Below, piece after piece: positions 1,969-60,981 of a stretch of DNA of 64,000 nt (position 1 is its first letter; each line of letters starts with the position of its first letter). Below the pieces are notes generated by a model. That model was given only the letters and a program-made list of their open reading frames with translations, was not told the DNA's origin and made no database searches. The DNA comes from an uncultured Prevotella sp. (lineage in GTDB: Bacteria > Bacteroidota > Bacteroidia > Bacteroidales > Bacteroidaceae): assembly GCA_900771975.1 (NCBI GenBank), contig CAAGPV010000012.1, positions 132,891 through 196,890 on the forward strand, in the 5' to 3' direction. A program made the translations under genes and the position numbers.

Positions 1969-2058
1969 TCTTCCAATACCCTGTATTTTAGGAGCTAAAA
2001 CACGGTATTTTAGCTCTTAAAACCGGCCTTTTTAGGAGCTAAAACATAGGGTATTGTT
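1969..2058. repeat. MITE-like palindromic intergenic repeat, copy A, with ~17-bp terminal inverted repeats
   Basis: Left end caataccctgtatttta versus rc of right end caataccctatgtttta. Inside are tandem ~22-bp units ttttagGAGCTAAAACacggta built from CTAAAA-N7-TTTTAG palindromes. Related copies sit at 13391-13475, 37424-37500 and 60888-60960. Confidence 0.7.
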
Positions 2059-2154
2059 AACCTATTGATTGTCAGTTATATACAAATGCAGGGAAGATTT
2101 TAAGGAATCTTCCCTGCATTTGTGTTTTTCCCTTTAGAAAGTGGGGTAGAAGTG

Positions 2155-4482
2155 TTACTTCATAATTGCCTTGACAGTGGCATTGAGTTGGTTGCCTTTC
2201 ACTTTTAGAAGAACCATTCCGTTTGCTTTTGGCAAGTAGATGGAAGTGTTTGTGCCAAAGAAGGTGTGGTGTCCTAACAGTGTTCCGTTGGTGTCGTAGG
2301 CATAAAGAGTGTATTGCTCTTTTGCCTGTGCCCCTTCAATGTTCACTATCACCTGTCCGTTAAAGGCTTGTACAAGTCTTACCCTTGCGTTGTCTGCCTG
2401 GCTCTTCACAATGGTTCCAATGCCGTCTGCAGCAGTACCGAAGCTGATTTTCTTGCTTGTCAGTCCTAATTCAAAAGCGCCAAGATCGGGTGCTGTTCCT
2501 TCATATCTTATGGCTGGTACGGCAACTCCCTGGTCTGCATATTTCGTATTTTCGTCAATGACAGTGCCTTTGTCCACCATCAGTGCATTTCCTTCTATAG
2601 GGTGCGCCCATGTTATGTTGTCCCATTGCAGGTCGCCGTTGGCGTCACGGTCGGCAATGAGGTTGGCATAGTCGTCTTCGCTCTGTACATTTGACGGGTC
2701 AAGGTTGAGGTCGCAGGTGACAACGGTGCCTACTGAGATTTCCGTACGGCCGTACTTTTTGCTCTTTTCGCCCCATTTGGTGTTGTCGTTGTGATGTGTA
2801 TCGGTTTTAAGGTTGTCGTTGATGGAGACGCAATTGGTGGCCACCAGCTCGTGTCCCTCGGCAATGGGTTCGTAAGCTCTATACGAATAGGCCTTAGAAA
2901 GGGTTGCCCCATTGATGTTTTTCAAGGCATAACCTGTGCAGTTGTTCATGATGATGTCGCCAGTGTTATGGTTTTGGTCAAAGCCTTTGTTGACGTTGTT
3001 CACAGCTACGCAGCGATTGAGCACTACGTTCATGGCTCCTTGGTTAGAACCGCATTTAAATCCGTTGCCGTTACCTTTTGTTACAACTCCGTTTATGAGC
3101 GCATTCTCGTATGCCAGACAGTTTTCGAACACGATGGTGACGTTGTCTTTGAAGCCACCGTCTTTCTTAAAGAACACGTCATAGCCGTCGTCAGAGTTGT
3201 TATAGGCGCGACAACCATAGAAATAGTTACCTGTTCCGACAGAAATCTTGGGTGCAAAGCCGTCCGCATCGCCGTCACCTTCGTCTTTGTTCTCGTAAGC
3301 GTCACAGTTGAGAATGTAGTTATATGCACCGAGATTCTTTATTTGAACGCCCGTATCGCCGTTTTTGTAGAACTTACAGTCCTCTATGATGTTGTCGTGG
3401 GCGTCTTGTGTGCGGTTGATAATGTCTTGTTGGGTGCCACCGGTGGGTTTGTTGCGTTCTATGAGCAGTCCGTTGTCGCTTGCGTTGGTGACATCCACAT
3501 GATAGAAGTGCCAGTAAGACGAGGTCAGACGTATGCCTTGATAGGGATTGTCGCTGTGTCCGTGGGCCGGATGGTTGCAGTTGATGACGGCGCGACCATC
3601 AAGACACACGAGCGAATTGTAGTTATCTGCCGTTCCGTTGCGGTCGTCAATATTGATACGCTCGGTAGGACGGTATTCACCGGCAGCAAGATAGATGGTT
3701 GTTCCTGGTTCTGTTGCCTTGTCTATGGCCAGTTGTATGCTTGCAAGAGGGGTTTCGGCAGTAGCACCATCGTTGTTGTCGTCACCGTTGGGGGCTACAT
3801 ATATCACTGGTCCATGCCCCAGTGTGGCTGTGGCAATAGGCTCATCTCCGGTCATATAGTTAAGTCCGCGTGTCTGGTCGTTGGGGTTGTCAGGGTTGCC
3901 CGGAGTCGTTCCACCACCACCTCCGGCAGCGGTAGAGTCGCCAATGCTCATTTTGTAGATGTACATACCGCCTTCTATGCCAATGGTGACGTTGCCGTCA
4001 GCGGTGACGGTTCCTGTTCCTGTCTGGTGATCTTTACCTGTTGAAGCGGGGAATGTTCCTTCTACATTGGTAAGTATCAACGAGCGTGTAGCTGTTTTCT
4101 TTGATGTACAGTACTCTATAGTGACCACGTCACCTGCCTTGCGGTTGGGAACGGTCAGCGAACAACCATCGCCCAGCCAAAGAGCAGATGTTTCTCCAGC
4201 CAGTCGGAGGTTGCCGTCTGTGTTGGCGGTGATGGTAAACTGCAGTCCTTCACACACGGAAAGTTCCACATCCGAGGCCTTCAGTGGAGCTTGTTCCAAA
4301 GCCTGTAGATAACAATAACGGCTTTTTGTGTCTGTTTTCCAATTGGTGTCTGCTGTTATCAAGCTTACATCATTGGTCGGAACGGAGGTGAACGACCATT
4401 GCTTGTTGGTGTTTTCGGTCTCTTGGGCGAGCATACTTATGCTAAAGGCCAAACCCACCATCATTGTAATTGCTTTTTTCAT
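2155..4482 (-). CDS. Secreted right-handed beta-helix protein (pectate-lyase-fold/polysaccharide-lyase-like) with a T9SS C-terminal sorting domain
   Basis: Signal peptide MKKAITMMVGLAFSISMLAQ. Beta-helix N-cap-like segment NGDDNNDGATAETPLASIQLAIDKATEPGTTIYLAAGEY, followed by repetitive N/G/D-rich coils. The C-terminus ends ...KANGMVLLKVKGNQLNATVKAIMK, which is typical of a T9SS CTD. Confidence 0.6.
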   Translation of the reverse strand: MKKAITMMVGLAFSISMLAQETENTNKQWSFTSVPTNDVSLITADTNWKTDTKSRYCYLQALEQAPLKASDVELSVCEGLQFTITANTDGNLRLAGETSALWLGDGCSLTVPNRKAGDVVTIEYCTSKKTATRSLILTNVEGTFPASTGKDHQTGTGTVTADGNVTIGIEGGMYIYKMSIGDSTAAGGGGGTTPGNPDNPNDQTRGLNYMTGDEPIATATLGHGPVIYVAPNGDDNNDGATAETPLASIQLAIDKATEPGTTIYLAAGEYRPTERINIDDRNGTADNYNSLVCLDGRAVINCNHPAHGHSDNPYQGIRLTSSYWHFYHVDVTNASDNGLLIERNKPTGGTQQDIINRTQDAHDNIIEDCKFYKNGDTGVQIKNLGAYNYILNCDAYENKDEGDGDADGFAPKISVGTGNYFYGCRAYNNSDDGYDVFFKKDGGFKDNVTIVFENCLAYENALINGVVTKGNGNGFKCGSNQGAMNVVLNRCVAVNNVNKGFDQNHNTGDIIMNNCTGYALKNINGATLSKAYSYRAYEPIAEGHELVATNCVSINDNLKTDTHHNDNTKWGEKSKKYGRTEISVGTVVTCDLNLDPSNVQSEDDYANLIADRDANGDLQWDNITWAHPIEGNALMVDKGTVIDENTKYADQGVAVPAIRYEGTAPDLGAFELGLTSKKISFGTAADGIGTIVKSQADNARVRLVQAFNGQVIVNIEGAQAKEQYTLYAYDTNGTLLGHHTFFGTNTSIYLPKANGMVLLKVKGNQLNATVKAIMK

Positions 4483-7477: not shown

Positions 7478-8305
7478 TTATTTGCGAACGGCCCGTCCTA
7501 TGCAAACTGCACCTATAAGGATGAAAGGAATGCTTAGGATTTGCCCCATGTCGAGTGTCAAACCGGCTTCAAAGGCTTCTTGCACCTCCTTAGTGTATTC
7601 AATGAAAAAGCGGAAGGTGAAGATGAGAAACAGACACAATCCAAAGTAAAGTCCTGATCCTACCTTTTGCGAATATTTCTTATAGACGGCCAGAATGAGC
7701 AAGAAGAAGCACAGGTAGGCAATGGCCTCGTAGAGTTGTCCTGGATGGCGGGGTGCTTTGTCGACATTGGCAAAGATAAAGGCCCAAGGTACGTCTGTCA
7801 CCTTGCCTATAATCTCGGAGTTCATAAGGTTTCCAAGGCGTATGAACATCGCCGTTATGCCCGAACAAATTCCCATAAAGTCGAGCACCACCCATGGCTT
7901 CATTCCTGAGCGTTTGATGTAAAGGTATAAACCGATAAGTAATCCTATCACCCCTCCGTGTGATGCAAGCCCTTGATAGCCTACAAAATGCCATGAACCA
8001 TCGCCCATGTGCCGGATAGGAACAATCATTTCTATGATGTGATCCCACGAACCGAGAAAGTATGTAGGTTCGTAGAATAGGCAATGGCCCAGTCGGGCAC
8101 CTACGAGTATGCTCAGAAAGACATATATGAAGAGTGGCTCAAACTGCTGGTCTGAATAGTGATGACGCTTGTAGAGCCACTTCATCAGAAAAAATCCGCC
8201 CGCCAAACCCAATAGCCAGCACAACGAATACCAGCGAATAGCAAAACTGCCGAGGTGAACAGCCACCTCAGAAGGTTGCCAGTAGATGTATAAAAGGTCA
8301 GACAT
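7478..8305 (-). CDS. lgt: Prolipoprotein diacylglyceryl transferase
   Basis: Family signatures IRWYSL, GARLGH, GLASHGG and HPGQLYE in a multi-TM protein. It is convergent with mutS with zero intergenic bases. Confidence 0.9.
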   Translation of the reverse strand: MSDLLYIYWQPSEVAVHLGSFAIRWYSLCWLLGLAGGFFLMKWLYKRHHYSDQQFEPLFIYVFLSILVGARLGHCLFYEPTYFLGSWDHIIEMIVPIRHMGDGSWHFVGYQGLASHGGVIGLLIGLYLYIKRSGMKPWVVLDFMGICSGITAMFIRLGNLMNSEIIGKVTDVPWAFIFANVDKAPRHPGQLYEAIAYLCFFLLILAVYKKYSQKVGSGLYFGLCLFLIFTFRFFIEYTKEVQEAFEAGLTLDMGQILSIPFILIGAVCIGRAVRK

Positions 8306-9520: not shown

Positions 9521-12283
9521 TTAATGGGCTTCCAACCAGTTATTTCCCCATCCACAATCTGCCAATAGCGGTACATTCAGTTGATAGGCTCCCTGCATTT
9601 CTTCCATGACGATGCGCTCCACGCGTTCTCGTTCGTCGGGATAGACGCTGAAGTTAAGTTCGTCGTGCACTTGAAGTATCATTTTCGAGCGGATGCCTTC
9701 TTCCTTGAAGCGACGGTAGATGCGTATCATAGCCACCTTTATGATGTCGGCCTCCGATCCTTGTATGGGGGCGTTGATGGCATTGCGTTCGGCAAATCCC
9801 CTTACGGTGCCGTTCTTAGAGTTGATGTCGGGCAGGTAGCGGCGTCGGTGGAAGAGCGTTTCGGCATATCCTTTCTGCCTTACTTCTTCTTTGGCTGCCT
9901 CCATATAGGCGTGCACTTTCGGGAAAGTACGGAAGTAGTCGGCTATCAACGTGCGGGCTTCTCTATTGCTTATCTCCATGCGTTGCGCCAAACCGTAGGT
10001 TGTAATGCCGTAGATGATGCCAAAGTTGGCTTGTTTTGCTTTCTTGCGTTGTTCGGCGCTGACGTTCTCTGGACGTTCGTGCCATATCTTAGCAGCGGTG
10101 GCTGCATGGATGTCTTGTCCGTTTTTGAATGCTTCCGTCATGTTTTCGTCACCGCTGAGGTGGGCCATGATGCGAAGTTCTATCTGTGAATAGTCTGCTG
10201 AAAAAAACAGACAACCTTCATCGGGTACGAAGCACTTGCGTATTTCCTTTCCGTCATCGTCGCGAACGGGAATGTTCTGAAGGTTAGGGTCGCTCGACGA
10301 CAGACGCCCTGTAGCGGTTACAGCCTGGTTGAAAGATGTGTGTATGTGCCCCGTCTTGGGGTTGATGAGCTTTGGAAGAGCGTCAATATAAGTGCTGAGA
10401 AGTTTTTTTAACCCTCTGTAAGCCAGTATATCAGAAACGATAGGCGCCTTCTGTTTGAGTGATTGCAGCACCTCTTCGGATGTAACGTATTGTCCGGTCT
10501 TGGTCTTCTTGGGCTTTTCCATTATCTGCATCTTTCCAAAGAGAATGTCGCCTACTTGCTTAGGACTGCTAATATTGAATTTTTCGCCTGCTTCGTGGTA
10601 GATTCGCTCTTCATATTCTGCCATTCGACGTGTGAAAATCTTTGACGTTTCTTTCAGCGACTCTGTGTCTATGCGCACGCCGTTCAGTTCCATTTCCACT
10701 AAGACGGGCACAAGAGGCATCTCTATTTCGTAGAAGAGTTTCTCGCCGTCTGCCTCTTTCAGTTTTCTTTCCAACAGGTTTTTCAATCTAAGGGTGACGT
10801 CGGCATCTTCACAAGCATATTCGTAAATATCTTTGGCTGCGAGGTCGCGCATGTTTTTCTGCTTGCGTACTTTGGGTCCGATGAGTTGCTCTATGTGTAT
10901 GGTTTGGTAGTTGAGAAGTGTTTCAGCCATGTAGTCCATGTTGTGTGCCAGTTCTGGCTGAATGATGTAATGGGCCAACATGGTGTCGAAGAGTTTTCCT
11001 TTTACTTCCACACCATAACCGCGTAACACCTCAATGTCGTATTTGATGTTTTGCCCAACTTTAGTAATTTTCTCGTCTTCATAAAGAGGTTTAAAGATGT
11101 TCACAAGTTTTAAGGCTTCTTTACGATTGCTTGGTAAGGACACATAAGCGGCTTGAAATTCCTCTACCGAAAAGCTTAAACCTACCAATTCGGCGTCAAT
11201 TGCATTGGTGGAAGTGGTCTCTGTGTCTAAACTGAGTGTTTGTTTTGTCCGTAAAAAGTCATAAAGTTTAATTGCTTCTTCCTCTGTTTCAATGAGTTGA
11301 TAGTTGTGCTTGGTGTTTTCTAAGCACGAAATACGGGCGTTTTTTCGCTCTTCTTGCCGGTTGTCGGCAAATTCTGCAAAGAGATCGAGTTGCTTGTTAG
11401 CAACTGTTGGAGTTTTTTTAGGATTGTTAAGAAACTTGTTTCTGAGTGTTTTAAACTCAAGTTCAGAAAACAGTTCGGTGAGTTTTGACTCGTCTGGTTC
11501 TGTTCTCTTCAGTTCTTCCAGGTTGAGTTCAACCGGTACGTCTGTACGTATGGTTGCAAGAAATTTCGACATCTTTATATCGTCTACCGCTTTCTCAACT
11601 TTTTCTTTCAGTTTGCCTTTCAGCTCACCCGTGCGTTCCAACAGTTGTTCTACGCTTCCAAATTGGTTGATGAGTTTTGCCGCTGTTTTTTCTCCAACGC
11701 CTGGACAGCCAGGAAAGTTATCTGCCGAGTCGCCCATCAGTGCCAACAGATCTATCACTTGGGTAGGGGAGGGTATTCCGAATTTGGCTTCCACCTCTTT
11801 TGTTCCCACAATGTCATATCCTCCTCCATGGCGAGGTCGGTACATAAACACGTTCGGTTGGATGAGTTGTCCATAGTCCTTGTCGGGTGTGAGCATATAG
11901 GTTTCAATCTCTTCTTTGCCTGCTTTGGTGGCCAAAGTGCCAATGACGTCATCTGCTTCAAACCCGTCCACTTGTAGGATGGGGATGTGCATGGCTTGAA
12001 GAATTTGCTTAATGATGGGCACAGCGGTTTTGATGTCTTCGGGTGTTTCCTCCCGCTGAGCTTTATAGGCAGGAAAGACTTCATGGCGAAAAGTTTTTCC
12101 ATGGTCGAAAGCCACTCCTATATAGTCGGGCTTCTCTTTGTTGATGACTTCTTGAAGGGTGTTGCAGAATCCCATGATGGCCGAAGTGTTCAGTCCTTTC
12201 GAGTTGATTCTTGGCGAACGTATGAAGGCATAGTAGGAACGATAGATCAATGCATATGCATCGAGCAGGAAAAGTTTTGCCAT
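9521..12283 (-). CDS. polA: DNA polymerase I
   Basis: 5'-3' exonuclease N-terminus MAKLFLLDAYALIYRSYYAF, a 3'-5' exonuclease region, and pol motif DYSQIELRIMAHLSGD. Confidence 0.95.
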   Translation of the reverse strand: MAKLFLLDAYALIYRSYYAFIRSPRINSKGLNTSAIMGFCNTLQEVINKEKPDYIGVAFDHGKTFRHEVFPAYKAQREETPEDIKTAVPIIKQILQAMHIPILQVDGFEADDVIGTLATKAGKEEIETYMLTPDKDYGQLIQPNVFMYRPRHGGGYDIVGTKEVEAKFGIPSPTQVIDLLALMGDSADNFPGCPGVGEKTAAKLINQFGSVEQLLERTGELKGKLKEKVEKAVDDIKMSKFLATIRTDVPVELNLEELKRTEPDESKLTELFSELEFKTLRNKFLNNPKKTPTVANKQLDLFAEFADNRQEERKNARISCLENTKHNYQLIETEEEAIKLYDFLRTKQTLSLDTETTSTNAIDAELVGLSFSVEEFQAAYVSLPSNRKEALKLVNIFKPLYEDEKITKVGQNIKYDIEVLRGYGVEVKGKLFDTMLAHYIIQPELAHNMDYMAETLLNYQTIHIEQLIGPKVRKQKNMRDLAAKDIYEYACEDADVTLRLKNLLERKLKEADGEKLFYEIEMPLVPVLVEMELNGVRIDTESLKETSKIFTRRMAEYEERIYHEAGEKFNISSPKQVGDILFGKMQIMEKPKKTKTGQYVTSEEVLQSLKQKAPIVSDILAYRGLKKLLSTYIDALPKLINPKTGHIHTSFNQAVTATGRLSSSDPNLQNIPVRDDDGKEIRKCFVPDEGCLFFSADYSQIELRIMAHLSGDENMTEAFKNGQDIHAATAAKIWHERPENVSAEQRKKAKQANFGIIYGITTYGLAQRMEISNREARTLIADYFRTFPKVHAYMEAAKEEVRQKGYAETLFHRRRYLPDINSKNGTVRGFAERNAINAPIQGSEADIIKVAMIRIYRRFKEEGIRSKMILQVHDELNFSVYPDERERVERIVMEEMQGAYQLNVPLLADCGWGNNWLEAH

Positions 12284-12345
12284 AAATATTGCTTTTAAGA
12301 TGTGTAAAATTACTAATTTTTTGTCAAAATCTCCGAGAAAACTCG

Positions 12346-12353
12346 TAATTTTG
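12346..12353 (+). promoter_or_regulatory. -7 box TAATTTTG upstream of ispB
   Basis: Matches the TAnnTTTG consensus 18 nt upstream of the ATG at 12371. Confidence 0.45.
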
Positions 12354-12370
12354 TATCAAATTTCATTTGC

Positions 12371-13348
12371 ATGGATTACCTTTCGCTCATCAAGAAACCC
12401 ATAGAAAAGGAGCTCTTAGGCTTTATTGATATGTTTAACGGGTCGTTAGAACATGATGACGGACTGCTTCAGCAGGCCTTAAACCATATTCGTCAACGGG
12501 CTGGCAAGCGTATGCGCCCTATGCTTATTTTGTTGATGGCTAAGAATTTCGGTGAAATCACCGATGTTACTCTGCATGCAGCCGTTGGTCTTGAGCTTTT
12601 GCATACAGCATCTTTGGTTCACGATGATGTGGTGGACGAAAGTGCTGAGCGAAGAGGTCAGGCCAGTGTAAATGCCGTTTATGACAACAAGGTGGCTGTG
12701 TTGGTGGGTGATTACATTCTTTCTACGGCACTTCTTCATGTCAGCTACACCCACAGGGAGGTTATTGTGCGTTATTTGGCGCAGTTGGGTCGCACCCTTT
12801 CTGACGGAGAAATCCTTCAATTGTCGAACATTCGCAACCTTGATATTTCTGAAAACGTTTACTATCAAGTTATTAAACAGAAGACGGCTGCCTTGTTTGA
12901 AGCCTGTGCCGGCATTGGTGCATTGAGTACTGGTGCGAACGATGCCGATTTTATAGCTGCCAAACAGTTTGGACAGAATTTAGGGATGATTTTCCAAATA
13001 CGCGATGATATCTTCGATTATTATGAAGATCCACGTATTGGTAAACCTACAGGCAATGATATGGCAGAGGGAAAGCTTACTTTGCCGGTTATCTATGCAC
13101 TCAATCATACGCAAGATGCAGCTATGTTGGCCTTGGCACGCAAAGTGAAAGAGGGTAGTGTGACCAAAGAGGAAATTAACCGCTTGGTGGCTTTTGCCAA
13201 AGAGCAAGGCGGCATTGACTATGCAGACAAGGTGATGTGGCGTTTACATGCCCAATCTGAGCAGTTTTTACAGGAAAAAGTAAGCTCTCTTTCCCTTCGT
13301 CAGGCCTTTAAAGCATACCTTGACTTTGTCATTGAACGTGCACTTTAA
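12371..13348 (+). CDS. ispB: Polyprenyl diphosphate synthase (octaprenyl-diphosphate synthase-like)
   Basis: First aspartate-rich motif LVHDDVVDESAERRG and second DDxxD FQIRDDIFDY. Confidence 0.9.
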   Translation: MDYLSLIKKPIEKELLGFIDMFNGSLEHDDGLLQQALNHIRQRAGKRMRPMLILLMAKNFGEITDVTLHAAVGLELLHTASLVHDDVVDESAERRGQASVNAVYDNKVAVLVGDYILSTALLHVSYTHREVIVRYLAQLGRTLSDGEILQLSNIRNLDISENVYYQVIKQKTAALFEACAGIGALSTGANDADFIAAKQFGQNLGMIFQIRDDIFDYYEDPRIGKPTGNDMAEGKLTLPVIYALNHTQDAAMLALARKVKEGSVTKEEINRLVAFAKEQGGIDYADKVMWRLHAQSEQFLQEKVSSLSLRQAFKAYLDFVIERAL

Positions 13349-13390
13349 AGACTTTTATAACCTTTTGTAAATCAGTAACTTAACTATTAC

Positions 13391-13475
13391 CTTCTAAAAC
13401 CGGCTTTTTTAGCTGCTAAAATGCCGTGTTTTAGCTCTTAAAATACGGCATTTTAGGATGTAAAACGTAGGGTCT
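13391..13475. repeat. MITE-like palindromic repeat, copy B
   Basis: ctaaaaccggcttttttag, then ctaaaatgccgt...acggcattttag (perfect 12-nt inverted arms), ending taaaacgtagggt. Same family as copy A. Confidence 0.65.
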
Positions 13476-14431
13476 TGTTTTTCAACAGTTAAGGGTGAGA
13501 ATTTTTTGCGGTGCATTTCTCTAACTGAAAAATGGATTTATAGGTTTTGAAAAGTTTCATCAAGGTTCGATGAAATGGCGTTTATCGTATGTTGACCTTC
13601 AAGGTTTTGTCCTAATTTTTGATGATGTAAATGCCATTTGAAAGGTTTTCTGTTGAAGTGTCGACCAATTATCCGCTAATGTTGTAAATGGGGCTTACAT
13701 CGCTTTTATTTATGCTTTCAGAGACCCTTATTACCATCTACAACGGTTGTCTATTCATCGTCTGTTGTCCGTTTGCTTTTCTTATGGGTGTTATTGGCTT
13801 TATACCATTTATAAGTGATGCAACTATCTACAAACCGTTAAGATATTCATAGGCGGCTTTTAGCTGGTTGTTTTTCCCTGCATCGTCAACTTTACTACCT
13901 TAGTAGTCACCCTTTAGGGTGGTGTTGCCTTATTCGTCTGTTGTCAACTCCACTCTTTTGTAGGTTTTCTCGCCTGCTGCATAAGCATTGGTTTGTATTT
14001 TGTAGCTGTTGTTTTCGTCTGTTTAGGTCTGTGTTATGTCTTCGCTGTAGCTTCTCCCTTTCCTATTTGCATCCATGATTGTGTACCAATAGCTTGTTTT
14101 CCTGTTCTTCTTCCCATTCACCGTTGTTGTAGTTATAATTTGTGGTGTGTGGGGCTATGTTGGGCATCTTCGTTGTTACTTTCCACCTTTGCCCTGCTAA
14201 GGTTTTTAAAGTTAACAAGTTTGCTTAGCGTTTTGGTAAGTTTTACAATCTATTCTTGGTGTTCCCATGTCTGCGAATAGGCAAAAAAGGGGAGAAATGC
14301 TAAAGCGACGACAACTGTTTTAGATGTTTTTTTTCATCTTCTTTTGTGGTTTTTGATGCATTAAAATTTTCGTTTATACATCTAACCAATACCTCTGTTT
14401 TGTCTTAACGGTTTCTCGTTACGTGTAGCTT

Positions 14432-26271: not shown

Positions 26272-26469
26272 ATGAAAAAAGCAACATATATCACACCTTC
26301 AATCAAGGTGAAACAAATTAATACGGAATCTCTTTTGGCTTCAGAATCGGTAACTTATGGAGATGGAACTACAAGTGACACAGGCTTCCAAGGCTTGTCC
26401 AACGAGGGAACCGTTGAGGATGACGAAGAGGATGTAGCACTACCACAAAACTATAACATCTGGGAATAA
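26272..26469 (+). CDS. Small acidic hypothetical protein (65 aa), apparently co-transcribed with the upstream T9SS cargo gene
   Basis: MKKATYITPSIKVKQINTESLLASESVTYGDGTTSDTGFQGLSNEGTVEDDEEDVALPQNYNIWE. It starts 33 bp after the upstream stop, has no signal peptide, and is followed 34 bp later by a strong intrinsic terminator. I do not recognise the family. Confidence 0.5.
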   Translation: MKKATYITPSIKVKQINTESLLASESVTYGDGTTSDTGFQGLSNEGTVEDDEEDVALPQNYNIWE

Positions 26470-26502
26470 GAAAAAACAAGTAGAACTGATTGTTCAATAA
26501 AG

Positions 26503-26548
26503 AATGGGATTGCAACCAAAAAGTAGTTGTAATCCCATTTTCTTTTGC
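26503..26548 (+). terminator. Rho-independent terminator after the 65-aa ORF
   Basis: aatgggattgcaac-caaaaagtag-gttgtaatcccatt is a 13-14-bp stem with one G.U pair, followed by ttcttttgcgtttt. Confidence 0.8.
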
Positions 26549-26664
26549 GTTTTGTAAAACGGCAAGAAACGTGTGGAAATGTAAAAAATCGGTAAGTTTA
26601 TGATAAAATTTGGGTAAATGTAAGATTTTTGTCGATATCTTTTGTTGTTTATAAAAATAATGCA

Positions 26665-26672
26665 TATATTTG
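26665..26672 (+). promoter_or_regulatory. -7 box TATATTTG (extended TATATTTGCAA) for the 1089-aa adhesin gene
   Basis: Matches the TAnnTTTG consensus and predicts a ~129-nt 5'UTR. It is flanked by AAATGTAAAAA direct repeats at 26576-26588, 26616-26624 and 26678-26690. Confidence 0.55.
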
Positions 26673-26807
26673 CAAACGAAATGTAAAAACCAAGCAAATA
26701 ACTCTTTGGTGGCATATTGTCAAATACTAATAAATTAATAACGAAAGAAAGCTGTTATATCCCACGAGAAGATAAACAACACTATATTATTCACTAAACA
26801 CAAGTTT

Positions 26808-29800
26808 ATGAGAAAGAAAATTACACGTTTGTCGTGGTTGGCATTGGCGATAGCCTTGTCTTCCCCTGCTGTCTCAACCGCTCAGACAGCAACCAAAAAG
26901 GTGGCACCGAGCCCTGCAAAACTTTTGCTGGATGCTGCAAGTGAGAACCCTTTGGTAAAGAAAGGCCAAATGATTCCGCAGATGCCATCCCTCTTCAAGA
27001 GAGCAGCTGTGTTTAATTCCCTGATTCAACCTTCATCATCTGTTGCAAGAGTGCCCTTGAAAGCTGACACAGCTTTAGAGCCCGACTATTGCAACACTTT
27101 TGATTCAGAGGAAGACTTCAATGCATTTACCGTTTTGGATGCTAACAATGACGGTAGAACATGGAAGTATTCTGCAAATCAAGGCGCAGCACAGTCTTAT
27201 TGGAACTCTACAAAGGACAACGACGACTGGTTGTTCTCACCGGCTATCCACTTGAAAGCTTCTCGCTCCTATGTGTTTGCTTTCAAGCTAAGAAACCAGA
27301 GCAGTACTTATCATAACTCCTTAGAGGTGAAATGGGGTGATGCTGCAACACCGGAAGGCATGACCAAGACTCTTCTTCCCACTACTACACCTTCTAACGT
27401 ATGGACAGAGTATACCTATGAGATAACTCCTGAAGCCGATGGCAACTTCTATTTCGGTTTCCATGAAAATTCACCTAAAGACCAGTTCTACTTGCTTGTA
27501 GACAGCTTCAGCGTTACAGCTTCAGCGTTGGCAACAGCTCCTGACTCAGTGACAAGTTTGAAGGTGACCCCTGGAGCACAGGGCGCTCTTACTGCAGACT
27601 TGAGCTTTAATGTTCCTACAAAGGCCATTGACGGCTCTGCCCTCAGTAAAGTTGATAGCCTTGTCATCAAGCGTGACGGTGCAATTATCTCTGTTTTAGG
27701 ACAGAAGAGTGCTGGTACACACGTTGCCTTCCAAGACAATGAGCTCAGCGGTCTTACTGTTGGAGGTACACACAAATACTCAGTTGTTGCCTACAAGGGA
27801 GAAGATGCAGGACGCACCAATACTGTTGCAGCCTGGATTGGTGAAGACGTTCCATTGGAACCACAGAACCGTGTTTTGACAGACAACGTTTCCAACATAC
27901 TCGTTTCTTGGGATCCATTCACCAATGTTGGAGCTAATGGCGGTTATGTAGATGCTTCTAAGTTGTCAGTGTCAGTCTTTAAACTGGTAGAAAGCATTTT
28001 CGGCTATTCTGTTGGCGACTCTTTGACTACCAGTGAAAAGGGTGCAACGAGTGTAACTATTGACCAAGATCCAGAAGAATCTACGTCTGATGACGGCTAT
28101 CAGGATTTGCTCCAGTATGCCGTAAGAACCAATGGTGCTTCTGCTAATAGTGGTTACTACATCACCAATGCACTTGTTGTAGGTCCAACTATTTCTGCTC
28201 CATATAAAGAGTCTTTCGCAGCCGGTAATGTTGAAAACGGTTTTGCATGGCTTGAATCTAACGAAGCCGTAGTCAATCGTGCTACAGCGTCTACTTGGAC
28301 ACTCTCTACAGACGTTTCTGCAGATAATGATGGCGGTTGCGCTTACTGGTCTGACATTGAAGGCTCTTACTCAAGCTATACCATAGAGGCTGGCGACGAG
28401 TGCTCAATCAACACTCCAAAGTTAAGTGTTAAGAACACCACCAATCCTACACTTTCATTCAGCTACTATGCTCCTGCCAAGACAAAAGCAAAGCTTGAGG
28501 TAGTTGTTGCTACTCCTGATGGAGCAGAAACCACCCTTAAGACTATCGACCTGTCAAAGAAGACCACTTCTGGTTGGGTTTCAGAAGAAGCTGACCTTTC
28601 AGCATTCAAGAACGAACGCTACTTCTTCGTGAAGTTCCATGGTATTGCAGAAGACAATGATATCGAGATGGGTGTTGACAATATCAATGTTCTTGATAAG
28701 TTGGACTACAACCTCGCAGCCACTTCTATCAGCGTTCCTTCCAAGGTGAAAGCTGGTACAAGCACACCTGTTGTTGTCGGTGTGAAGAACTGGGGTGCCA
28801 ATGCAGCAAGCAACTTCAGCGTAGTGCTCTACTCTAACGATGTTGCAGTAGACACAGTGGCAGTTGAAAACGAACTCGCTTCCTTCGAAGAGACCAGCGT
28901 AGAGACCACATTGCCAGTTAAGATTAATGCTCCAGAGCAACTCTCTGTAAAAGCAGAAGTGGTTTACGCCAACGACTTGAAGGCAGATGACAATACAACC
29001 GAGACAAAGACAGTTAACGTTATTCAGCCTAAGACACCAAAGGTTTCTGACCTTACAGCTGAAAACCCAAGCTATCCAACAGTGAACTTGGCTTGGAGTG
29101 CTCCTGCTCAACCTGAATTTGCTACAGTTACAGACGGCTTCGAAGATTATGAAGACTTCGCTATTGATGAATTTGGTGGCTGGCAGACTTCTTGCGGAAA
29201 CGATCAGGCTTTAGGTATGGGCTTCTGGAATTATTATCAATATCCTAACCAGGGAACTGCATTTGGATTTATCGTCTTCAACCTCTCACAGGTTTATCCT
29301 GACGCTGACCTCGTAACACCTAACCCAGGTCTTGCTGCACATACCGGCGACAAGTATGCTATGTCTCCTTACCGTGCAGACGGTAGCAACTTCCTTGACA
29401 ATGATAGCTGGTTGATTTCTCCATCCCTCTCAGGAAAGGCACAGACCATTTCGTTCTATGTAAACAACCTTGCATCAGCCGATGGTGTTTATGCAGAGTC
29501 TTATGATGTATTGGGTTCAAAGACCAATACCGATCTTTCAAGCTTCACCAAGATTGGTGATACTCGTGTAGCCAACGGATCTGTTGTAGCCGGCGATGGC
29601 AACAACTGGACTAAAGTAAGCGTTGACATTCCAGAAGGAACTAAGTACTTCGCTATTCACCAGACCACTTCAGCTGACAATGCATTCCTCTTCGGTGTTG
29701 ACGATGTAACTTATGAAAGTGGTGCAGAAGGCGCTTCTGACTCTATCGTAGCTTACAACATCTATCGTGATGGTGAGTTGATCGCAACAGTTGACGGTAA

Positions 29801-37315: not shown

Positions 37316-37423
37316 CTCTTTCTTTTGGGTGCAAAGTTACAAACTTTCGATGAAAACGGCTCTTGATTAAAACAGAAAAATTGACCTTTGTAGGTCATTG
37401 AAAGTCAGTTAGTTAGGAATACC

Positions 37424-37500
37424 CTGTGTTTTACCTTCTAAAACACGGCATTTTAGGAGCTAAAACACGGCATATTGGAGGGTAAAACACGGGGTTTTGG
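37424..37500. repeat. MITE-like palindromic repeat, copy C
   Basis: Opens aataccctgtgtttta, as copy A does, then ctaaaacacggcattttag-gagctaaaacacggcata...ggtaaaacacggggttttgg. Confidence 0.65.
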
Positions 37501-37530: not shown

Positions 37531-37561
37531 TTTGTGATTTCGGAAATATTGCCTATATTTG
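37531..37561 (+). promoter_or_regulatory. Orphan consensus Bacteroidetes promoter on the + strand with no downstream + strand ORF
   Basis: -33 TTTG at 37531-37534 and -7 TATATTTG at 37554-37561, 19 bp apart. The extended -7 TATATTTGCAAC is the same as the adhesin promoter. Predicted TSS ~37568. Confidence 0.5.
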
Positions 37562-37738
37562 CAACAGAAACCACTAAAAGGCAAATTACAGTTTAATTCC
37601 CATATTTGATAGGGCAAAAAGCCTTTTCCTATAAATTACGTAGCGGTATACCCCGTGACGGGAAATCCGTTTTTCTAACTTGAAGAGTTGTTGATAAATA
37701 AAGACAATGTTTTTCAGATTTGGCTAAATGTTGCCAAA

Positions 37739-60833: not shown

Positions 60834-60887
60834 GTAAAAATATTTCGCAATGTGTAAGTGGTTTGTTTTCAACTACTTACATTTTGC

Positions 60888-60960
60888 GGTGTAAAACCGG
60901 CCTTTTTAGGCGCTAAAACCCTACGTTTTACGAGCTAAAACGTAGGGTTTTACGTTGTAA
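60888..60960. repeat. MITE-like palindromic repeat, copy D, between the convergent DPP and histidine-kinase genes
   Basis: gtaaaaccggcctttttagg, then ccctacgtttta-cgagc-taaaacgtaggg (perfect 12-nt inverted arms), ending ttttacg. Confidence 0.65.
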
Positions 60961-60981
60961 TATACAAGGTATTGGAAAACG

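What the first reader, a model, noticed from the sequence alone, without database searches (positions are those of the whole stretch)
1969..2058. A family of MITE-like palindromic intergenic repeats built from CTAAAAC...GTTTTAG units, present at four loci
Four intergenic sites carry ~75-90-bp elements made of two to four tandem ~22-bp units of the form ttttagGAGCTAAAACacggca. The sites are 1969-2058, 13391-13475, 37424-37500 and 60888-60960. Each unit contains a CTAAAA-N7-TTTTAG inverted repeat. Copy A is bounded by ~17-bp terminal inverted repeats (caataccctgtatttta versus rc caataccctatgtttta). Copy C opens with the same aataccctgtgtttta end. Copies B and D contain perfect 12-nt inverted arms (ctaaaatgccgt/acggcattttag and ccctacgtttta/taaaacgtaggg). 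All copies lie just outside gene ends, either between convergent genes or upstream of leuS and coaD. Four copies in 64 kb would imply hundreds per genome. That is the pattern of a MITE, REP or BIME-like element, or of a repeated binding array for a dimeric DNA-binding protein. I do not recognise it as a named Bacteroidetes repeat.
Basis: seen in the sequence. Interest (0 to 1): 0.6.

Follow-up and report, generated by a model that had tools for sequence, protein, structure and literature searches.

The report
Modular curved palindromic repeats in Prevotella
Four intergenic sites in this Prevotella-family genome carry copies of an apparently undescribed family of short non-coding repeats, built from 22-bp modules that can fold back on themselves and are predicted to bend the DNA; it most resembles the REP/BIME repeats of E. 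coli, and there is no evidence that it still moves.

Summary
Exactly four arrays (1974-2056, 13394-13476, 37418-37498, 60892-60975) consist of 3-5 oriented 22-bp units, [A4][7-nt GC-rich core][T4][7-nt linker]. Shuffled sequence gives about none. All four are intergenic and fold as long hairpins on both strands.

New findings:
- Elements are mosaics of a few cores (CACGGCA, CCGGCCT, CRTAGGG) in either orientation and do not align end to end.
- The same A4/T4 framework occurs in other Prevotella species and one Treponema MAG, each with its own core.
- About 60% of arrays carry on one flank a head motif, TTGA-N3-TCAR-N4-TTA, resembling the IHF consensus. It is locked to the A/T-tract lattice (offset 2 mod 11 in 17 of 18).
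- A/T tracts recur every 11 bp, and the arrays are among the most strongly periodic and predicted-curved spots in the window.
- Arrays are fixed among strains of the species but absent, together with the surrounding spacer, from the same gene junctions in related species.
- I found no target-site duplication, no transposase, no Rfam or literature match and no copies in phages or plasmids. Folding does not favour the transcribed strand.

Verdict: a REP/BIME-like dispersed repeat acting at the DNA level, not a classical MITE. It is a new variant of a known kind and of moderate interest.

The parts
1974..2056 (.). Array A. It has 4-5 units bounded by inverted CAATACCC...GGGTATTG termini. It lies between the terminator of the beta-helix gene (2155-4482, - strand) and the leuS promoter and start (1818, - strand).
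   Evidence: RNA fold z = -4.4 (+ strand) and -4.8 (- strand). Rank 3 in both predicted curvature and 11-bp periodicity.
2058..2090 (-). Head motif of array A, read on the - strand: TGCATTTGTATATAACTGACAATCAATAGGTTA, then 2 nt, then AATACCC. Its distal TTTGTA block overlaps the stem of the neighbouring terminator hairpin.
   Evidence: Terminator hairpin at 2080-2125.
13352..13382 (+). Head motif of array B (..TTTTGTAAATCAGTAACTTA). It begins 4 nt after the stop codon of the polyprenyl synthase gene (stop at 13348).
13394..13476 (.). Array B. Core order: CCGGCTT, TGCCGTG, TACGGCA, CGTAGGG. The inverted middle pair forms an 18-19-bp hairpin.
   Evidence: Present in all 13 other strain contigs. 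Absent from the ispB-deoC junction of Hallella-like genomes.
37386..37415 (+). Head motif of array C (CCTTTGTAGGTCATTGAAAGTCAGTTAGTTA). It is an exact match to TTGA-N3-TCAR-N4-TTR.
37418..37498 (.). Array C. An AATACCCTGTG terminus is followed by three direct CACGGCA-type units. The outer arms pair over about 21 bp. It lies in the 477-bp ruvB-coaD spacer.
   Evidence: Present in all 8 strain contigs. The spacer is absent in L195 and L130.
60850..60879 (+). Head motif of array D (ATGTGTAAGTGGTTTGTTTTCAACTACTTA). Here it also forms a hairpin just after the S46 peptidase stop codon (60833).
60892..60975 (.). Array D. Core order: CCGGCCT, CCCTACG, CGTAGGG, then a degenerate GGTATTG terminus. It has perfect 17-nt inverted arms and sits between convergent genes.
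   Evidence: Rank 1 in both predicted curvature and 11-bp periodicity.

Best explanation
This is a lineage-specific family of small non-coding dispersed repeats. It works like the REP/BIME mosaic elements of enterobacteria but has its own architecture.

Anatomy (shown):
- Each element is a string of 3-5 oriented 22-bp modules, [A4][7-nt GC-rich core][T4][7-nt linker].
- It is often preceded on one side by a roughly 30-nt head motif, TTTGTAA-N4-TTGA-N3-TCAR-N4-TTA, in fixed helical register with the modules.
- Modules occur in either orientation, so every element is an imperfect palindrome able to form a hairpin or cruciform.
- A and T tracts recur every 11 bp. By a wedge model the duplex is predicted to be strongly curved.

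Origin (inferred): each Prevotella lineage amplified its own core variant and seeded copies into intergenic DNA through a function supplied in trans, that is, non-autonomous copy-and-insert or recombination-driven spread. The copies seen here are old and fixed in the species.

Present action (inferred): the elements act on double-stranded DNA rather than RNA. They would provide a bent segment next to a site for an IHF/HU-type bending protein, and so serve as an architectural or supercoil-positioning site. Any effect on transcript ends would be secondary.
For: - The family is real and dispersed: 4 arrays in the window against about 0 in shuffles. About 22 further loci come from a handful of metagenome assemblies, including 5 on one 196-kb contig.
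- Copies are mosaics of shared modules, like BIMEs. Different sites share 28-nt segments with 1 mismatch, but no pair aligns end to end.
- Cores are genome-specific on a shared framework. CACGGCA, CCGGCCT and CRTAGGG occur here; CATATCC in MAG RGIG9994 and a Prevotellaceae MAG; CAGSCTG in oral taxon 376; CGGWCCG in P. lacticifex; GATACCG in RUG101. Arrays also occur on 3 contigs of one Treponema MAG.
- All 27 non-redundant arrays are intergenic, and they occur in convergent, tandem and divergent gene contexts.
- Arrays are absent from orthologous junctions in other species. The ruvB-coaD gap is 12 bp in L195 and the genes overlap in L130, against 477 bp here. The ispB-deoC gap is 87 bp in L207, L247 and L248, against 1084 bp here. 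No arrays were found in 42 kb of syntenic Hallella-like DNA.
- Evidence for the DNA level: both strands fold equally well (z = -4.3 to -6.7). The transcribed strand has no advantage (better in 8 of 17, mean difference 0.15 kcal/mol).
- The head motif sits with the first A/T tract at offset 2 mod 11 in 17 of 18 head-array pairs, across species. It has conserved blocks beyond the search regex. It is not itself a hairpin in 13 of 15 cases.
- TCAR-N4-TTR is the right-hand part of the published IHF consensus WATCARnnnnTTR (10.1101/382655).
- AA/TT power at an 11.0-bp period ranks the arrays 1, 2, 3 and 5 of the whole 64 kb. Wedge-model curvature ranks them 1, 3, 4 and 6.
Against: - I found no trans-acting enzyme. 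A regex for HUH/Y1 (RAYT-type) motifs hit nothing in about 1 Mb of held loci plus the window.
- There is no target-site duplication and no clear element boundary.
- There is no presence/absence polymorphism among strains at sites B, C and D, so current mobility is unproven.
- At sites B and C the relatives lack the whole surrounding spacer (0.5-1 kb), not just the array. This is not a clean empty site.
- Strain diversity in arrays (6 of 179 sites) is about half that of other intergenic DNA (84 of 1246). This hints at constraint and fits a host function as well as it fits a selfish element.
- The IHF resemblance is partial, because the A of ATCA is not conserved. Whether Prevotella has a protein with that specificity is unknown.
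- The wedge-model parameters were recalled from memory.
Confidence: 0.5

Rival explanations
1. The arrays are host-selected protein-binding sites and not mobile DNA. A sequence-specific dimeric DNA-binding or nucleoid-associated protein binds the quasi-palindromic A4-N7-T4 sites on one face of the helix every 11 or 22 bp. An IHF/HU-like protein at the head helps. The arrays arise locally and are kept by selection. The cores differ between species because the protein's specificity has co-evolved with them.
For: - The head and the tract lattice keep a strict helical register.
- The 11-bp periodicity is strong.
- In several species the unit is a near-perfect 15-bp palindrome with a 1-nt centre, for example AAAACGGTCCGTTTT in P. 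lacticifex and AAAACAGGCTGTTTT in oral taxon 376. Such a sequence cannot form a hairpin but suits a dimer.
- Arrays are fixed within the species and show somewhat lower diversity than neighbouring spacer.
- In one Treponema locus an array lies 132 bp upstream of an HU-like gene.
Against: - Flanking genes and gene contexts show no common theme, so there is no obvious regulon.
- The number, order and orientation of units are mosaic and variable.
- Arrays are absent from the same junctions in related species.
- Three different cores coexist in one genome.
- No candidate protein was identified.
Confidence: 0.2
2. The arrays are RNA-level elements. They would be bidirectional transcription terminators, 3'-UTR hairpins that protect upstream mRNAs, or small RNA genes driven from the head.
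For: - Most arrays lie within 20-150 bp of a gene's 3' end.
- They form long stable hairpins flanked by A and U tracts.
- REP elements are reported to play such roles (abstract of PMC3733652).
Against: - The sense strand has no folding advantage.
- The consensus scan does not call any array a terminator, and site A has its own canonical terminator next to the array.
- Three arrays lie between divergent genes, and head orientation does not track gene direction.
- There is no Rfam match even at E <= 5.
- The head lacks the Bacteroidetes TAnnTTTG box (my inspection of the alignment; the box consensus is from my own knowledge).
Confidence: 0.1
3. The arrays are classical MITEs: deletion derivatives of an insertion sequence, or of a Tn7/Mu-type transposon with multiple 22-bp transposase sites at its ends. 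The parent's transposase would mobilise them.
For: - Copies A and C have terminal inverted repeats, and a CAATACC terminus recurs in 11 arrays.
- Multi-repeat ends next to a bending-protein site recall Tn7, Mu and Tn10 ends (my own knowledge).
- BrickBuilt is a MITE containing 23-nt tandem repeats in the related genus Porphyromonas (PMC4596501).
Against: - No target-site duplication is present.
- Termini are not symmetric in B and D.
- Copies do not align end to end.
- There is no strain polymorphism.
- There is no sequence similarity to the BrickBuilt repeat consensus.
- No copies were found in phage or plasmid collections.
- No parent element was seen.
Confidence: 0.1

Closest known systems
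REP / BIME elements of E. coli and other Proteobacteria, including the IHF-site-bearing BIME-1 (RIP/RIB) class
   Same: - High-density, extragenic, short palindromic units.
- Units are combined in either orientation into mosaic clusters.
- Sequences are lineage-specific.
- A bending-protein site of IHF type is associated with the cluster.
- Copies sit stably at orthologous sites within a species.
   Different: - Units here are AT-framed (A4/T4) with a short GC core, not GC-rich stems carrying a GTAG or CGTC tag.
- The periodicity is a strict 22/11 bp.
- The IHF-like head lies lateral to the array rather than between two inverted REPs.
- No RAYT was found.
- The host phylum is Bacteroidota.
Atypical REP-like structures flanking subclass 2.6 TnpA(Y1)/RAYT genes of Bacteroidetes (Quentin et al. 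2018, PMC6006769)
   Same: - Same phylum.
- Described as atypical, weaker secondary structures without GTAG, with copies elsewhere in the genome.
   Different: - The sequences listed there are GC-rich hairpins, for example GCTAGCGCGAGCGTCCCGCTCGTG.
- Searches of their main text and two supplementary files for Prevotella found nothing.
- No such gene was seen near the arrays.
BrickBuilt MITE of Porphyromonas gingivalis (Klein et al. 2015, PMC4596501)
   Same: - A Bacteroidales intergenic element built from short tandem units of about 23 nt, with flanking leader and tail.
   Different: - BrickBuilt units are direct repeats with the unrelated consensus AGAYCATARTATCCTCTCRTRTG.
- It has IS5-type terminal inverted repeats.
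- It has about 19 copies and is restricted to one species group.
Correia (NEMIS) elements of Neisseria and ERIC/IRU of enterobacteria (my own knowledge)
   Same: - Dispersed intergenic imperfect palindromes of about 100-150 bp.
- Correia elements contain an IHF site.
   Different: - Those families have homogeneous full-length copies with defined terminal inverted repeats, and Correia has TA duplications.
- They have no 22-bp modular lattice.
- Their sequences are unrelated.

Membership tests
MITE | Terminal inverted repeats at both ends | tested here: inconclusive
   A has 15/17 matching termini and C has 14/16. B and D have one CAATACC-type end and one different end.
MITE | Target-site duplication flanking the element | tested here: not met
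   The flanks of A are ..TTGTCTTC | CAATACCC...GGGTATTG | TTAACCTA.. with no direct repeat. None is evident at the other sites.
MITE | Copies of uniform length that align end to end | tested here: not met
   Pairs of sites share at most 28-nt segments. The elements are different mosaics of modules.
MITE | Presence/absence polymorphism between strains (recent mobility) | tested here: not met
   Site B is present in all 13 other strain contigs, site C in all 8 and site D in the 1 retrieved. Arrays are absent only in different species.
MITE | Parent IS or transposase with matching ends | not testable with these tools
   No whole genome could be scanned. None was seen in the held loci.
REP/BIME (RAYT-associated) | 20-40-bp GC-rich imperfect palindrome with a GTAG or CGTC tag at its foot | tested here: not met
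   Units are A4-N7-T4 with AT stems. GTAG appears only inside one core variant, CGTAGGG. The definition is from PMC3733652.
REP/BIME (RAYT-associated) | Extragenic location, with units clustered in alternating orientation as mosaics | tested here: met
   All 27 arrays are intergenic. Units occur in both orientations within arrays.
REP/BIME (RAYT-associated) | Cognate single-copy RAYT gene flanked by the repeats | tested here: inconclusive
   A regex for HUH plus YxxxNP motifs found nothing in the window or in about 1 Mb of loci. The genome as a whole was not searchable.
REP/BIME (RAYT-associated) | More than 100 copies per genome | not testable with these tools
   Local density is 4 per 64 kb. 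One 196-kb contig has at least 5 copies carrying the exact 18-mer. This is extrapolation only.
IHF-binding site | Match to WATCARnnnnTTR | tested here: inconclusive
   TCAR-N4-TTR is present in 16 of 27 arrays, against about 0.06 expected per array (my rough estimate). The A before TCA is not conserved, occurring in 6 of the 16 head sequences. The consensus is from 10.1101/382655. Binding was not tested.
Intrinsic (rho-independent) terminator | GC-rich hairpin followed directly by a T run | tested here: not met
   The consensus scan calls none of the four arrays. It does call the separate hairpin at 2080-2125.
Any Rfam RNA family | Covariance-model match | tested here: not met
   No hit at gathering thresholds. 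At E <= 5 there are only chance-level hits.
BrickBuilt MITE | 23-nt unit AGAYCATARTATCCTCTCRTRTG and IS5-type terminal repeats GAGACCTTTGCA | tested here: not met
   Compared by eye with the published consensus; there is no similarity.

The most novel reading that the evidence does not exclude
The arrays could be the visible half of a two-part system not yet described in Bacteroidota, and shared with at least one gut Treponema. In this reading a sequence-specific trans-acting protein, either a new kind of REP-associated transposase or a dedicated architectural protein, co-evolves with the 7-nt core. It seeds or maintains hundreds of phase-locked, intrinsically curved elements carrying a bending-protein site. 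These elements would position supercoils or nucleoid proteins along the chromosome.
Probability: 0.25. Interest if true: 0.7.

Novelty: new variant of a known kind. Interest (0 to 1): 0.5.

Why it matters
Prevotella and its relatives are dominant gut, rumen and oral bacteria. I found no described REP/BIME-type repeat family for them.

A dispersed element with a conserved 11-bp A/T-tract lattice, a phase-locked IHF-like site and species-specific cores would have several uses:
- It would mark species and strains.
- It offers a way into nucleoid architecture and supercoiling in Bacteroidota.
- It is a tractable case for asking how such repeats spread and co-evolve with a partner protein.

It also matters in practice. 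Short palindromic repeats like these can break assemblies and can be misannotated.

Tried and rejected
- **CRISPR-like array.** GTTTTAG..CTAAAAC recalls some Cas9 repeats. Rejected: the 22-bp units have no spacers, and there are four tiny dispersed clusters.
- **Homology to the BrickBuilt minisatellite MITE.** Rejected on sequence.
- **RAYT next to the arrays.** A motif regex found none in any held sequence. The Bacteroidetes subclass 2.6 REPs in Quentin et al. are unrelated GC-rich hairpins.
- **Known RNA family.** None in Rfam.
- **Canonical terminator.** Not called by the scan.
- **mRNA-strand-specific structure.** No bias.
- **Head as a hairpin.** Only 2 of 15 heads are significantly structured.
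- **Head as a Bacteroidetes promoter (TTTG / TAnnTTTG).** The -7 box is missing on inspection of the alignment.
- **Head enriched elsewhere in the window.** It is not: 13 matches against 7 expected, and 4 of the 13 lie next to arrays.
- **Phage or plasmid carriage.**
  - The 16-mer and the generic pattern gave 39 and 38 single hits in 2.9 million viral contigs, with no arrays.
  - blastn against plasmids and phages found nothing.
- **Composite transposon between the two arrays of Treponema locus L089.** The genes between them are housekeeping genes.
- **Sister species of intermediate divergence, to obtain a clean empty site.** None is available. The nearest IspB relatives are 97% (same species group) and then 77%.
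- **Exact-protein look-up for the gene next to site A.** It is not on record.

Full report
**1.

- Tandem Repeats Finder reports 22-bp-period arrays at each site.
- The core TTTTAGGAGCTAAAAC with up to 3 mismatches occurs 11 times against 0.77 expected, and only within the four sites.
- CTAAAACACGGCATTTTAG occurs 5 times against 0.00 expected.
- A generic detector for A4-N7-T4 units at 22-bp spacing finds exactly four arrays: 1974-2056, 13394-13476, 37418-37498 and 60892-60951, the last extending to about 60975 with a degenerate terminus. Shuffles give essentially none.
- Inverted arms are as described or better. D has perfect 17-nt arms, and A's arms are 27 nt at 81%.

**2. Anatomy**

The repeating unit is an oriented 22-mer, [A4][7-nt GC-rich core][T4][7-nt linker such as AGGAGCT].

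- The window uses three core classes: CACGGCA, CCGGCCT and CRTAGGG/CACAGGG. Each occurs in either orientation.
- Where neighbouring units are inverted they form long hairpins. All four elements fold far better than shuffles on both strands (z = -4.3 to -6.7).
- The elements are mosaics. Different sites share segments of up to 28 nt with one mismatch (A with D, B with C), but no two align end to end.
- One end is often CAATACC(C), which is both ends of A, the left end of C and the right end of D. The other end is often CGTTSTAAAAC.

**3. Context**

The organism is a member of the Prevotellaceae.

- RuvB homologues are named Prevotella sp. The nearest named IspB relatives are Hallella mizrahii and H. 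absiana at 76% identity.
- One strain sample name (XIAO16-1) looks like a published pig-gut metagenome catalogue, which I recognise from memory. The habitat was not verified.

Positions of the four arrays:

| Array | Position |
|---|---|
| A | Between the canonical terminator of a beta-helix gene and the leuS promoter |
| B | 46 bp after the polyprenyl synthase stop codon |
| C | In the ruvB-coaD spacer |
| D | Between the convergent S46 peptidase and hybrid kinase genes |

Across 27 non-redundant arrays from the window and fetched loci, none lies in an ORF. They occur in tandem, convergent (4-5) and divergent (3) gene contexts.

**4. Relatives elsewhere**

  - It also returned true multi-unit arrays in several Prevotella or Prevotellaceae genomes. 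Each has its own core: CATATCC, CAGSCTG, CGGWCCG, GATACCG or CATGCCC.
  - It returned arrays on three contigs of one Treponema MAG.
  - One 2.3-kb contig carries the window's own cores.
- A metagenome scan with the window's 18-mer gave 44 stretches. About half are true arrays, from a handful of assemblies, and five lie on one 196-kb contig.
- Phage and plasmid collections contain none.
- The framework was part of the search pattern, so its conservation across species is partly by construction. The extra in-register units beyond the matched 28 nt are not.

**5. A flank motif in fixed register**

Sixteen of the 27 arrays carry TCAR-N4-TTR on one flank only, pointing toward the array. My rough estimate of the chance expectation is about 0.06 per array.

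- Aligned on this anchor, further blocks are conserved: TTG(A) at -18 and TTTGTAA at -29.
- The first A/T tract starts at offset 2, 13 or 24 from the motif's end. That is 2 mod 11 in 17 of 18 head-array pairs, including cases from other species.
- The motif is not a hairpin in 13 of 15 cases.
- It is not enriched elsewhere in the window.
- It lacks the Bacteroidetes -7 box.
- TCAR-N4-TTR is the conserved part of the IHF consensus WATCARnnnnTTR (10.1101/382655). The A of ATCA is not conserved here, and binding is untested.
- In A, C and D the distal TTTGTA block overlaps a neighbouring hairpin, so only the proximal 18 nt should be treated as the core motif.

**6. DNA shape**

A and T tracts alternate every 11 bp.

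- A parameter-free measure, AA/TT Fourier power at period 11.0 in 88-bp windows, ranks the four arrays 1, 2, 3 and 5 of the whole 64 kb. This is 10-14 sd above the mean.
- A wedge model ranks them 1, 3, 4 and 6 for predicted curvature, at 55-64 degrees against 15.5 +/- 8.6. The dinucleotide parameters for this model were recalled from memory.
- Intrinsic curvature is therefore predicted, not measured.

**7. Mobility tests**

Within the species the arrays are fixed.

- B is present in all 13 other strain contigs, including a 97%-identity IspB lineage.
- C is present in all 8.
- D is present in the 1 contig retrieved.

Between species they are absent from the same junctions.

- ruvB-coaD is 12 bp apart in L195, and the genes overlap in L130, against 477 bp here.
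- ispB-deoC is 87 bp with a plain terminator in three Hallella-like loci, against 1084 bp here.
- No arrays occur in 42 kb of syntenic Hallella-like DNA.
- In both cases the relatives lack the entire spacer, so these are not clean empty sites and the element boundaries remain undefined.

Other points:

- No target-site duplication is visible.
- Strain diversity in arrays is 6 of 179 sites, against 84 of 1246 in other spacer DNA and 155 of 3248 in coding sequence. This is a weak hint of constraint.

**8. RNA versus DNA**

- The strand co-directional with the upstream gene folds better in only 8 of 17 arrays, with a mean difference of 0.15 kcal/mol.
- The arrays are not called as terminators, and site A has its own terminator beside the array.
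- There is no Rfam match.
- These results argue against an RNA-level function selected in mRNA. They favour a DNA-level element, acting as duplex or as symmetric single-stranded hairpins.

**9. Comparison with known families**

- Architecturally the closest is REP/BIME: extragenic, lineage-specific short palindromic units assembled in either orientation into mosaics, some classes with an IHF site.
- It is not a member. There is no GTAG or CGTC tag, no GC-rich stem and no RAYT found.
- Quentin et al. report atypical REP-like structures around Bacteroidetes subclass 2.6 Y1 transposases. Their listed sequences are unrelated, and searches of their text and supplements for Prevotella found nothing.
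- BrickBuilt of P. gingivalis is an analogue in a related genus but is unrelated in sequence and organisation.
- A bulk MITE census of Bacteroidota exists (PMC11602168). It may contain these elements anonymously.
- I found no specific description in the searched library, including searches for the sequences themselves.

**10. Verdict**

This is a real and apparently undescribed family of modular palindromic dispersed repeats in Prevotellaceae.

- The most likely reading (about 0.5) is a REP/BIME-like non-autonomous repeat that was amplified in a lineage-specific way, is now fixed, and acts on DNA as a curved segment coupled to a bending-protein site.
- The rivals are a purely host-selected protein-binding array (0.2), RNA-level terminators or sRNAs (0.1) and a classical IS-derived MITE (0.1).
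- Shown: the family, its grammar, its distribution, the register, the periodicity, and its fixation within and absence between species.
- Inferred: the spreading mechanism, the protein partners and the physiological role.

Noticed in passing
window 37532-37690 (+ strand): A Bacteroidetes-type promoter-like box (TAtaTTTG at about 37553-37560) is followed about 110 nt later by a small hairpin plus T5 (CGGTATACCCCGTGACGGGAAATCCGTTTTT). It could be a small transcript antisense to the ruvB-coaD spacer. The fold is no better than shuffles (z = 0.11) and there is no Rfam hit.
   Followed up: partly
window 13477-14431: About 950 bp has no credible ORF and is absent from Hallella-like relatives, where ispB-deoC is 87 bp. 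It contains an exact head-like TTGACCTTCAAGGTTTTG at 13592, a solo CCAATACC..GTTTTG terminus-like sequence at 14387, and an 11-bp AA/TT periodicity peak at about 14322-14361. This may be a decayed fifth copy.
   Followed up: partly
L074, L097, L108, L116, L124, L125 (around the pattern match in each): Six Bacteroidales, Muribaculaceae or Prevotellaceae MAGs share a conserved block just upstream of a gene start: GCAAATTAACTAAATGTTTTAGTTATAAAACAAATTATTTTAGTTAATAAAACTAAA. It carries TAACTAAA/TTTAGTTA half-sites and looks like an operator. It is unrelated to the repeat family.
   Followed up: no
L089 6702-7780: In the Treponema MAG an array (7722-7780) lies 132 bp upstream of a gene with DUF4469 and weak HU-like DNA-binding domain matches. 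This is a single case and may be coincidence.
   Followed up: partly
L247 and L248, about 12960-13920: The Hallella-like genomes have a spacer of about 950 bp between dtd and uvrC, where the window has 25 bp. It contains an exact head-like TTGATAATCAAGYAGTTG but no array. The motif may lie inside a small unannotated ORF on the other strand.
   Followed up: no
window 12283-12371 and about 26600: Two other spots rank among the most curved or most 10-11-bp-periodic in the window: the polA/ispB divergent promoter region and the 26369-26808 spacer. They look like ordinary promoter-associated curved DNA.
   Followed up: no
L092 (2.3-kb contig binned to a Pseudomonadota MAG): It carries an array with the window's own cores plus a perfect head motif. 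The contig is probably a mis-binned Prevotellaceae fragment.
   Followed up: no
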